Shown: piece by piece, positions 304 to 2,431 of the stretch
Position numbering within the stretch: the first letter of the stretch is position 1
How the letters are laid out: every line of letters begins with the position of its first letter
Assembly: GCF_003334355.1 (NCBI RefSeq)
Contig: NZ_QOWP01000051.1
Source of the DNA: Escherichia coli
Lineage (GTDB): Bacteria > Pseudomonadota > Gammaproteobacteria > Enterobacterales > Enterobacteriaceae
Reading direction: 5' to 3' (one strand)
DNA: 14,819 bases
Program-made: the position numbers and the translations under genes
The notes under the pieces: model-generated
What the model saw: only the letters and a program-made list of their open reading frames with translations
The model's database searches: none
Told to the model about the DNA's origin: nothing

Positions 304-1758
304 TCACTCTCTCTCCGGCAGCATAATCACAAACCTTGTCCCCCGCGCATCTGACGTTACCGCAACCGTGCCTTTATGCGCGACAACAATCGATTTCACT
401 ATCGCCAGCCCAATACCGCTACCTTCACCTTTTCGCTGGCGGGAAGGGTCAACGCGATAGAAACGGTCAAACAATCGCGGTAAGTGCTCGGGCGCAATGG
501 GCGTACCGGGGTTTTCGACGGAAACTTGCACCTGATGATTGACCGTCTGGCAGCGCACTACAATAGCCTCACTGGGTGGCGTATAACGCAGGGCATTAGA
601 AAGCAGGTTGCTTAACGCCCGACGCAGCATCAGCGGATCGCCCGCAACCTGACATTTGTCGCCAACAAATCGCAACTCCACGCCGCGATCTTCCGCTAAC
701 GCCTCGAAAAAATCGAACACTTTGCCGACTTCATCCGCCAGGTTGAGCATTTTCTTTTCGGGGATTAGCTGGTTGTTATCGGCCTGAGCGAGAAACAGCA
801 TATCGCTGACCATTTTCGCCATTCGCGTCAGCTCTTCGAGATTAGAGTAGAGCACATCTTCCAGCTCCTTCTGGCTGCGAGACTGGCTGAGGGCGATTTC
901 CGTTTGCGTGATGAGATTGGTAATCGGCGTGCGAATTTCGTGAGCGATATCCGCTGAGAAATTGGACTGGCGGGTAAAGACATCCTCAATACGCTCGATC
1001 ATATGGTTGAACGACAGTACCAGCTGTTCCAGCTCAATCGGCACGGTCTGCGGGTCGAGGCGAACGTCGAGATCTTTCGAGGTAATATTCTGGATTTGAC
1101 GGCTGACGCTGCGGATCGGCGCGTGACCTTTATGTACCGCCAACAGTACGATAAAGACGATCAGGATGCTGATTACCGATGCGGTCATAATAAGTTTATT
1201 CATCAAATCATTTATGTAATGAAGATGAAAATCGATCGAAAGCGCGATGTAGAGCGTATAAATCGGTTTGCCGTCCACCAACGGGCCAACCGGCAAGTTA
1301 ATCATCCGCCAGTTGCTGTGTTCCATATGCCCGTGACCGTGACCGTGGCCTGGCATCATCATCGTCGGGCCGGAAAGGAGATACACCTCGCCACCCTGAG
1401 CGTCTTTATCGGGTATGGCGTCACGCGTAAACTCGCGGATATCCGGCGCACCGGGGGAGTGATACACCGTTTTACCCTGACTATCTGCCAGGGAAATCAA
1501 CACATTGGAATAACCACTGACGATATCTTCCAGCGTCATTAAGCGTCGGGCTTGCGTTTCGTCAGGGTGATTTAGTACCCGTTCAAGGGTGGCGCTAATC
1601 TCTTTTAAATCATTAATATCCTGCTCGGCAAAATGAACTTTTACTGAGTGGATCATGATCCATGCAAAGGCGAAAAACGCCGCGATGGTGGCCAGGCTGA
1701 TAAAAAAGGTCAGGCGGGTTGCCAGCGAAAACGGGCGCTGAAATGGCTTACTGACCAT
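304..1758 (-). CDS. cusS: Copper/silver-sensing histidine kinase CusS
   Basis: Minus-strand ORF 304..1770 in the track. I place the start at ATG 1756-1758 ([10 protein letters not shown]...), which has GAGGTG 4 nt upstream, rather than the in-frame ATG at 1768-1770. The translation has two TM segments flanking a ~150-aa periplasmic domain, an H-box ([12 protein letters not shown]) and a C-terminal ATPase G-box (GSGIGLAIV). Recognised as CusS; exact start is the main uncertainty. Confidence 0.9.
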
Positions 1759-2431
1759 CCGGCACCTCAAGCATGTAACCCACGCCGCGCACGGTCTGAA
1801 TTAGCTTCGGCTCAAAGTCGTTGTCGATTTTGCCGCGCAGCCGCTTCACCGCCACATCAATAGCATTGGTATCGCTGTCAAAATTCATGTCCCATACCTG
1901 CGAGGCGATAAGCGAGCGGGGCAGCACTTCGCCCTGATGGCGAAGGAAGAACTCCAGCAGAGTAAACTCTTTACTGGTCAAAGTAATGCGCGTGCCGCTG
2001 CGGGTGACTTTGCGGCTGACGAGATCGACCATCAAATCGGCAACCTGAAACTGACTTTCGATAATCACCGCCGCCCCGCGCCGCAGTAATGTGCGCACCC
2101 GCGCCAGCAGTTCAGCAAAAGCGAATGGCTTCACCAGGTAGTCATCTGCCCCCAACTCCAGCCCCTTGACGCGATGTTCAATGGTGCCAAGCGCGGTAAG
2201 CAACAGAATCGGCATCCCTTTATTGGCGGAGCGTAACATGCGCACGATATCCCAGCCGTTCACGTCCGGCAGCATAATATCGAGGATTATCAGATCATAA
2301 TCACCGGTCATCGCCAGATGGTAGCCATTCAGCCCGTTGTCGGCCAAATCGACCACAAAACCGGCTTCGGTTAACCCTTTGGTCAAGTATTCTCCGGTTT
2401 TCTTTTCATCTTCGACAATCAACAGTTTCAT
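1748..2431 (-). CDS. cusR: OmpR/PhoB-family response regulator CusR
   Basis: 227-aa minus-strand ORF starting [16 protein letters not shown], with an N-terminal receiver domain and a C-terminal winged-helix DNA-binding domain ([19 protein letters not shown]). GGAGG lies 5 nt upstream of the ATG at 2431. The stop at 1748-1750 overlaps the cusS start. Confidence 0.95.

What the first reader, a model, noticed from the sequence alone, without database searches (positions are those of the whole stretch)
1748..1770. cusR stop overlaps the cusS start (11-nt overlap); alternative upstream cusS ATG
The cusR stop TAA (1748-1750) lies inside the cusS N-terminal codons when cusS starts at 1758; the overlap is 23 nt if it starts at 1770. 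The GAGGTG Shine-Dalgarno is positioned for the 1758 start. Such overlaps imply translational coupling of kinase to regulator.
Basis: seen in the sequence. Interest (0 to 1): 0.2.

Follow-up and report, generated by a model that had tools for sequence, protein, structure and literature searches.

The report
Ordinary cusR–cusS 11-base gene overlap
The copper-sensor kinase gene cusS of E. coli starts 11 bases before the end of its partner regulator gene cusR, an arrangement that is already annotated, typical of two-component operons and conserved across enterobacteria; the proposed upstream "ATG" is really a non-conserved TTG.

Summary
The window is the E. coli cus locus. All features of the finding lie on the minus strand. 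The cusR stop is TAA at 1750..1748. The cusS ATG is at 1758..1756, so the overlap is 11 nt. GAGGTG at 1768..1763 lies 4 nt upstream of that ATG. These points are confirmed.

The "alternative upstream ATG at 1768-1770" is wrong: that codon is TTG. It is the last two bases of CusR Leu221 (CTT) plus the first G of Glu222.

RefSeq annotates the same 11-nt overlap in K-12 MG1655 and strain 214-4. In 79 species-representative cusRS/silRS loci, the regulator's Asp codon is always GAT and the next codon always starts with G. The kinase ATG is therefore invariant. The TTG is present in only 45 of 79.

The ATG has a good Shine-Dalgarno match (-9.3 kcal/mol); the TTG does not (-4.6). No conserved RNA hairpin is present.

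Translational coupling is plausible but untested for cusRS. Published work shows coupling weakens as overlaps lengthen. A cell-free initiation map found no stand-alone initiation at cusS.

Verdict: a real, ordinary and already annotated feature. The start at 1758 is strongly supported. Interest is low.

The parts
1748..2431 (-). cusR coding sequence (227 aa, OmpR-family response regulator); stop TAA at 1750..1748
   Evidence: annotated as cusR in RefSeq genomes with a 100% identical junction
304..1758 (-). cusS coding sequence from ATG 1758..1756 (484 aa sensor histidine kinase)
   Evidence: 98% identical to K-12 CusS from residue 1; RefSeq start is at the same ATG
1748..1758 (-). 11-nt cusR/cusS overlap (ATGGTCAGTAA): CusR codons D225(gAT) G226 Q227 stop, read as CusS M1 V2 S3 K4(AAg)
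   Evidence: same overlap in K-12 (594760-594770); 11 nt in 73 of 79 related loci
1756..1758 (-). cusS start codon ATG, formed by the last two bases of CusR Asp225 (GAT) plus the first G of Gly226
   Evidence: invariant in 79/79 loci; Asp codon GAT 79/79 versus 59% elsewhere in the same genes; next codon always G-initial although the residue varies among G/A/E/V/D
1763..1768 (-). Shine-Dalgarno GAGGTG for cusS, encoded by CusR Glu222-Val223
   Evidence: duplex with the 16S 3' end -9.3 kcal/mol; GAGG core in 74/79 loci; Glu codon GAG 78/78 versus 45% elsewhere
1768..1770 (-).
   Evidence: present in only 45/79 loci, tracking the synonymous Leu codon CTT; Shine-Dalgarno energy -4.6 kcal/mol, near background; no alternative initiation site listed for cusS in INRI-seq Table S3
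1772..1774 (-). ATG = CusR Met220, in the cusR frame and not the cusS frame
2457..2484 (-). only sigma-70-like promoter match on the minus strand, upstream of cusR; none inside cusR and no terminator between cusR and cusS, consistent with co-transcription
   Evidence: consensus scan only

Best explanation
This is the junction of the E. coli cusRS two-component operon. cusS is translated from the conserved ATG at 1758..1756. That ATG lies 11 nt inside the 3' end of cusR, in the other reading frame. The cusS ribosome-binding site (GAGGTG) is itself encoded by CusR codons Glu222-Val223.

The last five CusR codons are a low-constraint tail. Their synonymous positions are fixed so as to keep the kinase's Shine-Dalgarno sequence and ATG.

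Both genes are read from one mRNA that starts at the cusR promoter. Ribosomes finishing cusR stop 8 nt past the cusS ATG. I infer that some of them re-initiate at it after a short backward shift, held by the Shine-Dalgarno pairing. Others may bind de novo when the site is free.

Because the overlap is longer than the optimal -4/-1 and the stand-alone site is weak, the kinase would be made at a small fraction of the regulator's rate. This is the usual pattern for two-component systems.

Shown: the coordinates, the annotation, the conservation, the Shine-Dalgarno strength and the absence of a conserved hairpin. Inferred: the coupling itself and its efficiency.
For: Sequence:
- The stop, start and Shine-Dalgarno coordinates are as stated.

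Annotation:
- The same 11-nt overlap is annotated in K-12 MG1655 (cusS 593328-594770, cusR 594760-595443) and in strain 214-4.
- The junction region matches 5,334 of 5,426 complete E. coli genomes.

Conservation across 79 species-representative loci, 53-96% CusS identity:
- The ATG is present in 79 of 79.
- The overlap is 11 nt in 73, 8 nt in 5 and 14 nt in 1.
- GATG is invariant in the alignment, and GAGG is at least 90% conserved.

Internal codon control:
- Asp is GAT in 79/79 at the start position, versus 59% elsewhere in the same genes.
- Glu is GAG in 78/78 at the Shine-Dalgarno position, versus 45% elsewhere.

Other evidence:
- Shine-Dalgarno duplex energy is -9.3 kcal/mol for the ATG and -4.6 for the TTG, against a background mean of -4.1.
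- Predicted homologues start M-x-x-K/N-x-x-x-RPFSL.
- There is no internal promoter or terminator match between the two genes.
- In INRI-seq, the isolated cusS initiation region gave 0 reads in 5 replicates although its transcript was present (53.8 CPM). cusR gave 75-94 reads. phoQ versus phoP showed the same pattern (PMC9825163).
- 4 of 5 tested E. coli overlapping pairs are translationally coupled, and the Shine-Dalgarno sequence usually contributes (PMC6728339).
Against: - No experiment on cusRS coupling was found in the searches run here.
- -11 lies outside the -8 to +10 window that Huber et al. treat as predictive of termination-reinitiation (PMC10666635).
- Synthetic-operon data show coupling dropping steeply with longer overlaps (PMC12548453).
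- One of the five tested E. coli overlapping pairs (bioBF) was not coupled.
- About 30% of all annotated starts were also undetected in INRI-seq, so the zero for cusS is weak evidence.
- In vivo Ribo-RET has no signal for either gene.
- The homologue N-termini are gene-caller predictions, not measurements.
Confidence: 0.8

Rival explanations
1. The overlap is only genome compaction. cusS is initiated de novo at ATG 1758 by free 30S subunits through its own Shine-Dalgarno sequence, with no dependence on cusR translation.
For: - The Shine-Dalgarno match is good enough for independent initiation (-9.3 kcal/mol, similar to cusR's own -9.5).
- No conserved structure masks the site.
- The E. coli bioBF overlapping pair initiates de novo (PMC6728339).
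- Coupling weakens with longer overlaps (PMC12548453).
Against: - The isolated cusS initiation region gave no initiation signal in the cell-free INRI-seq assay, while cusR did.
- Most tested overlapping pairs in E. coli are coupled.
- Ribosomes elongating through cusR must pass over the site, so some interplay is unavoidable.
Confidence: 0.3
2. cusS starts at, or also starts at, the upstream in-frame TTG (1770..1768). This would give a 23-nt overlap and a CusS four residues longer (M-R-C-R-M-V-S-K...).
For: - The TTG is in frame, with no intervening stop.
- The Leu codon CTT that creates it is commoner at this position (45/79) than elsewhere in the same genes (9%). That enrichment is unexplained.
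Against: - The TTG is absent in 34 of 79 related loci, where Leu is CTG, CTC or TTA, while the ATG is invariant.
- It has no Shine-Dalgarno sequence (-4.6 kcal/mol, at background).
- It abuts or overlaps the Shine-Dalgarno sequence that serves the ATG.
- No alternative cusS initiation site is listed in INRI-seq Table S3.
- RefSeq and almost all homologue predictions use the ATG.
- Coupling is reported to vanish at about -25 nt.
Confidence: 0.03
3. Coupling works by RNA unfolding. A hairpin hides the cusS Shine-Dalgarno sequence and ATG, and is opened only by ribosomes translating the end of cusR.
For: A 123-nt fold of the window's junction pairs GGUGC and GGAUGGU with downstream cusS codons, leaving the cusR stop in the loop. 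The Shine-Dalgarno and AUG bases have low unpaired probability in that fold.
Against: - The fold changes with the chosen segment and is no more stable than shuffled sequence (z = -0.43; 59 of 200 shuffles fold as well).
- RNAalifold on 56 related junctions predicts 0 conserved pairs.
- The 3' arm lies in the most variable stretch of the alignment.
Confidence: 0.07

Closest known systems
E. coli K-12 cusRS (b0571/b0570) as annotated in RefSeq and EcoCyc
   Same: Identical junction architecture: an 11-nt overlap, the same ATG and the same GAGGTG. CusS is 98% identical from residue 1.
   Different: This allele has two extra residues (Gly-His) in the periplasmic His-rich loop and a diverged C-terminal stretch, giving 484 aa versus 480 aa. 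The junction itself is the same.
Plasmid silRS (silver resistance) and the chromosomal cusRS/silRS clade of Enterobacterales
   Same: The regulator tail has the same ...GYxLE(V/I)PD... motif, with GATG supplying the kinase start and GAG(G/A) upstream. All overlaps are in the same phase: 8, 11 or 14 nt.
   Different: silR ends one codon earlier, so its overlap is 8 nt. A few loci have a weaker GAGAT/GAGAC motif in place of GAGG.
Other E. coli OmpR-family regulator-kinase pairs and plasmid pcoRS: ompR-envZ, cpxRA, qseBC, pcoRS (-4); phoPQ, hprRS (-1)
   Same: The kinase start overlaps the regulator stop in one operon. The kinase's Shine-Dalgarno sequence lies inside the regulator gene.
   Different: Those pairs use the common ATGA/GTGA or TAATG-type 4-nt and 1-nt overlaps. 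cusRS uses a rarer, longer overlap, for which lower coupling efficiency is expected. basRS has a 9-nt gap.
Translational coupling by termination-reinitiation (Huber et al. 2019 and 2023; review by Brown and Wade 2025)
   Same: A co-directional overlapping pair with an intragenic Shine-Dalgarno sequence just upstream of the downstream start.
   Different: The experimentally validated E. coli cases are -4 and -1 overlaps. -11 is outside the -8 to +10 window used as predictive. Dependence on upstream translation has not been measured for cusRS.

Membership tests
CusRS copper/silver two-component system of E. coli | High sequence identity to characterised CusR and CusS, with the expected domain set | tested here: met
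   CusS is 98% identical to K-12 CusS. Close homologues carry HAMP, CusS-type sensor, HisKA and HATPase_c Pfam domains. RefSeq names both genes.
CusRS copper/silver two-component system of E. coli | Genomic context: divergently transcribed cusCFBA next to cusRS | tested here: met
   ORFs of 457, 110, 407 and 1047 aa lie on the plus strand at 2588-8845. cusC and cusF are annotated in matching genomes.
Overlapping co-directional gene pair | The downstream start codon lies at or before the upstream stop codon, on the same strand and in a different frame | tested here: met
   ATG 1758..1756 versus TAA 1750..1748 gives an 11-nt overlap. RefSeq annotation agrees.
Translationally coupled pair (termination-reinitiation) | Translation of the downstream gene depends on ribosomes reaching the upstream stop codon | not testable with these tools
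   This needs a premature-stop reporter assay. The only indirect hint is that the cusS initiation region is silent when isolated in INRI-seq.
Translationally coupled pair (termination-reinitiation) | Spacing within the -8 to +10 nt range taken as predictive of efficient reinitiation (PMC10666635) | tested here: not met
   The spacing is -11 nt. Related loci have -8, -11 or -14.
Translationally coupled pair (termination-reinitiation) | Shine-Dalgarno motif inside the upstream gene, correctly spaced from the downstream start | tested here: met
   GAGGTG lies 4 nt upstream of the ATG, with a duplex energy of -9.3 kcal/mol. It is conserved in 74/79 loci.
Gene with two in-frame initiation sites (alternative N-terminal isoforms) | A second in-frame start codon that is conserved and has its own ribosome-binding signal or measured initiation | tested here: not met
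   The TTG is present in 45/79 loci only. Its Shine-Dalgarno energy is -4.6 kcal/mol. No alternative cusS site is listed in INRI-seq Table S3.
Structure-gated coupling (MS2 coat-lysis type) | A stable, conserved hairpin sequestering the downstream ribosome-binding site | tested here: not met
   The fold has z = -0.43. The consensus fold of 56 junctions has 0 pairs.

The most novel reading that the evidence does not exclude
The unusually long but strictly phase-conserved overlap (-11, -8 or -14, with an invariant GATG) may be a selected ratio-setting device. Inefficient backward reinitiation from the cusR stop would fix CusS output at a small, constant fraction of CusR across the whole cusRS/silRS clade. 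Overlap length would then tune the kinase:regulator ratio. The unexplained enrichment of the Leu codon CTT just upstream (57% versus 9% elsewhere) could be part of that signal.
Probability: 0.15. Interest if true: 0.3.

Novelty: already known. Interest (0 to 1): 0.08.

Why it matters
It matters little beyond correct annotation. The result confirms that the database start of cusS is right and that the supposed alternative ATG is a misreading.

The practical value is for people engineering CusRS copper or silver biosensors, or deleting cusR. The last 21 bases of cusR carry the cusS ribosome-binding site and start codon. Clean cusR deletions, C-terminal tags on CusR, or separate cloning of cusS will therefore change CusS expression.

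The codon-level signature is a tidy textbook illustration of dual-coding constraint. The Asp codon is always GAT, the next codon always starts with G, and the Glu codon is always GAG.

Tried and rejected
1. A hairpin hiding the cusS ribosome-binding site. One fold suggested it. A second segment folded differently with z = -0.43, and the alignment fold gave no pairs. Rejected.

2. TTG 1770 as a real start. Rejected on conservation, Shine-Dalgarno energy and the lack of an INRI-seq alternative site.

3. An internal downstream start (Met35 at 1656). It has no Shine-Dalgarno sequence (-3.2 kcal/mol) and would remove the conserved RPFSL...TM1 segment. Rejected.

4. Direct experimental initiation data:
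- The Ribo-RET preprint holds no supplementary files as text.
- The Ribo-RET values copied into INRI-seq Table S2 are 0 for cusR and cusS.
- The TRAINSPOTTER N-terminomics supplements do not list cusS or cusR.

5. The Li et al. 2014 protein-synthesis-rate paper could not be opened under the id tried. The CusR:CusS synthesis ratio was therefore not obtained.

6. Three CusRS papers were searched for statements about the overlap, start codon or coupling. None was found.

7. An internal promoter for cusS. No match was found inside cusR.

8. Rfam found nothing at the junction.

Full report
**What the window is**

The 14.8-kb window is the Escherichia coli cus locus. A 301-nt query around the finding matches 5,334 of 5,426 complete E. 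coli genomes, and 1,241 records at 99% identity or better. The features under the match are annotated cusR and cusS.

ORF listing and translation place both genes on the minus strand:
- cusR runs 2431..1748 (227 aa).
- cusS runs 1758..304 (484 aa).
- The cusCFBA-sized ORFs lie on the plus strand from 2588.

**Check of the observation**

Reading the minus strand gives ...ATG CTT GAG GTG CCG GAT GGT CAG TAA in the cusR frame (M220 L221 E222 V223 P224 D225 G226 Q227 stop).
- The TAA is at 1750..1748.
- The ATG at 1758..1756 opens the CusS frame ([12 protein letters not shown]...). It is made of the last two bases of the Asp225 codon plus the first G of Gly226.
- GAGGTG is at 1768..1763, with 4 nt before the ATG.

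The codon at 1770..1768 is TTG, not ATG. It is the last two bases of the Leu221 codon CTT plus the first G of Glu222. The only nearby ATG (1774..1772) is CusR Met220, in the cusR frame. The cusS frame is open upstream only as far as a TAA at 1803.

**Annotation**

RefSeq places K-12 MG1655 cusS at 593328-594770 and cusR at 594760-595443, which is the same 11-nt overlap. Strain 214-4, identical over the junction, is annotated the same way. The feature is therefore already on record.

**Which start codon: comparative evidence**

A protein search returned CusS relatives down to 57% identity. Almost all their predicted N-termini are M-x-x-K/N-x-x-x-RPFSL, matching the Met at 1758. These are gene-caller predictions, so I went to DNA.

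An alignment-based scan of species-representative genomes gave 80 loci at 53-96% CusS identity. They include Escherichia, Citrobacter, Klebsiella/Raoultella, Enterobacter, Pantoea, Serratia, Kluyvera, Edwardsiella, Morganella and one Bordetella. I anchored on the regulator's C-terminal motif G[VAI]GYxL[EG]; with the window's own junction this gave 79 analysable junctions.
- The regulator's Asp codon is GAT in 79 of 79.
- The next codon begins with G in 79 of 79, although the residue varies (G 27, A 24, E 20, V 6, D 2). The kinase ATG is therefore invariant.
- The overlap is 11 nt in 73, 8 nt in 5 and 14 nt in 1. Two Morganella loci outside the motif also show 14 nt.
- The hexamer upstream of the ATG is GAGGTN or GAGGCN in 74 of 79.

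By contrast, a start-type codon four codons upstream exists in only 45 of 79. It is present exactly when the regulator's Leu codon is CTT, and absent when Leu is CTG (20), CTC (11) or TTA (3).

An internal control used the rest of the same regulator genes:
- Asp is GAT 59% of the time elsewhere.
- Glu is GAG 45% elsewhere, but 78 of 78 at the Shine-Dalgarno position.

The multiple alignment shows GATG invariant and GAGG at least 90% conserved. The bases between the ATG and the stop are the most variable in the region. The sequences are phylogenetically related, so these counts are not independent trials. The third base of the Leu codon does flip within genera (Citrobacter, Raoultella, Kluyvera), which shows that synonymous sites in this stretch are free to change.

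**Ribosome-binding strength**

Duplex energies with the 16S rRNA 3' end:

| Start | Energy (kcal/mol) |
|---|---|
| cusS ATG 1758 | -9.3 |
| cusR's own start | -9.5 |
| TTG 1770 | -4.6 |
| Background across cusRS | mean -4.1 |

Only 6% of positions across cusRS reach -9. The TTG also abuts the Shine-Dalgarno sequence that serves the ATG. A ribosome held by that sequence would place its P site downstream of the TTG, not on it (inference).

**Is there a gating RNA structure?**

One 123-nt fold paired the Shine-Dalgarno sequence and AUG with downstream cusS codons. A 105-nt segment folded differently, and its stability was ordinary: z = -0.43, with 59 of 200 shuffles folding as well. RNAalifold on 56 related junctions predicted no conserved pair. 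I reject structure-gated coupling.

**Transcription context**

The only sigma-70-like match on the minus strand lies upstream of cusR (2484..2457). No promoter match lies inside cusR, and no terminator-like site separates cusR and cusS. This is a consensus scan only. It fits co-transcription.

**Experimental data in the literature**

INRI-seq (PMC9825163) translated each E. coli initiation region in isolation in a cell-free system and mapped arrested initiation complexes. Table S2 and its legend give the following:
- cusS had 0 reads in all five replicates (not detected), although its synthetic transcript was present at 53.8 CPM.
- cusR had 75-94 reads (detected), with its transcript at 180.7 CPM.
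- The in vivo Ribo-RET columns are 0 for both genes.
- No alternative cusS site appears in Table S3.

The same contrast holds for phoQ (0) versus phoP (80-110) and for kdpD (0) versus kdpE (33-49). About 30% of annotated starts were undetected overall (3,059 validated). The zero for cusS therefore shows only that its stand-alone site is weak. That fits dependence on upstream translation but does not prove it.

The N-terminomics supplements I could search do not list cusS. Three CusRS papers contain nothing on the overlap.

**What is known about such overlaps**

- In E. coli the commonest co-directional spacings are -4, then -1 and -8. Longer overlaps are several-fold rarer. Among them the phase containing -8, -11 and -14 is the commoner one (PMC10666635).
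- Four of five tested E. coli overlapping pairs were translationally coupled and one was not. Removing the intragenic Shine-Dalgarno sequence reduced reinitiation in four of five (PMC6728339).
- Coupling efficiency falls with increasing overlap and was absent at -25 nt in a synthetic series (PMC12548453).

Among E. coli K-12 regulator-kinase pairs that I looked up:

| Pair | Spacing (nt) |
|---|---|
| ompR-envZ | -4 |
| cpxRA | -4 |
| qseBC | -4 |
| phoPQ | -1 |
| hprRS | -1 |
| basRS | +9 |
| cusRS | -11 |
| plasmid silRS | -8 (same GATG) |
| plasmid pcoRS | -4 (GTGA) |

An overlap at this junction is therefore the rule for this gene class, and cusRS is simply at the long end. Overlap does not mean equal output. 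EnvZ is present at only about 50 dimers per cell (PMC6023141). From my own knowledge, OmpR is about thirty-fold more abundant.

**Most likely mechanism**

- Shown: one operon; a conserved ATG 11 nt inside cusR; a conserved Shine-Dalgarno sequence encoded by CusR Glu222-Val223; no conserved hairpin; a weak stand-alone initiation region.
- Inferred: a ribosome terminating at the cusR UAA has the cusS AUG just behind its P site and the Shine-Dalgarno sequence within reach of its 16S tail. A fraction of post-termination subunits shift back and re-initiate. De novo binding may add to this.
- Inferred consequence: the long overlap and weak site keep kinase output low relative to the regulator.

I put the start at 1758 at about 0.95. 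I put some dependence of cusS translation on cusR translation at about 0.6.

**Novelty and verdict**

The feature is real, correctly located apart from the mis-called ATG, already annotated, and typical of its gene class. The conservation analysis adds a clean demonstration that synonymous positions in the CusR tail are held by the overlapping cusS signals, but no new kind of biology. Interest is low.

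Noticed in passing
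window 1-70 (and the AT-rich stretch to about 300): The window begins inside the terminal sequence of an IS1 element that sits next to the 3' end of cusS. Five genomes, four of them named ETEC and all from pigs, have this arrangement at 100% identity, with 'IS1 family transposase' annotated beside cusS. K-12 has nfrB there, and strain 214-4 has a type VI secretion vgrG gene.
   Followed up: partly
window 1327-1353 (minus strand; CusS residues about 136-144): This CusS allele has one extra Gly-His unit ([12 protein letters not shown] versus [10 protein letters not shown] in K-12) in the His/Met-rich periplasmic loop. It arises from a GTGACC/GTGGCC hexamer repeat and could be a slippage polymorphism in the metal-sensing domain.
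   Followed up: partly
window 304-600 (minus strand; CusS residues about 395-484): The C-terminal part of CusS carries a cluster of substitutions relative to K-12 (PPSEA versus PTGET, plus N/D, Q/L, S/I and M/T changes). The end is also longer, giving 484 aa against 480 in K-12 and 482 in the commonest E. coli cluster. This suggests an allelic or recombinant 3' end near the IS1 junction.
   Followed up: partly
window 1769-1771 (minus strand; CusR Leu221 codon) and the same position in L003-L082: The Leu codon just upstream of the cusS Shine-Dalgarno sequence is CTT in 45 of 79 loci, whereas CTT makes up only 9% of Leu codons elsewhere in the same regulator genes. CTA never occurs there. The cause is unexplained. 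It could be shared ancestry or a preference for U next to the Shine-Dalgarno sequence.
   Followed up: partly
window 2497-2518: A perfect palindrome, AAAATGACAATTTTGTCATTTT, lies in the cusR-cusC intergenic region next to the promoter-like site 2484..2457. From memory it matches the published CusR binding box. This was not tested here.
   Followed up: no
window 14664-14819 (+): Rfam match to the sok antitoxin RNA (RF01794, 63.7 bits against a gathering score of 59) at the right end of the window. It implies a hok/sok-type toxin-antitoxin locus downstream of the 372-aa minus-strand ORF.
   Followed up: no
protein P0009 (E. coli record, 599 aa; not in the window): One E. coli entry encodes an in-frame fusion of CusR residues 1-164 to CusS from residue 46. 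This is a deletion that removes the junction, the CusR DNA-binding end and the first CusS transmembrane segment.
   Followed up: partly
literature: PMC9825163 Table S2 (K-12 cusS, phoQ, kdpD versus cusR, phoP, kdpE): In the cell-free INRI-seq map, the three sensor-kinase initiation regions I looked up gave zero signal, while their partner regulators were clearly detected. This hints that weak stand-alone initiation may be general for kinase genes. Only these pairs plus rstAB (both weak) were checked.
   Followed up: partly
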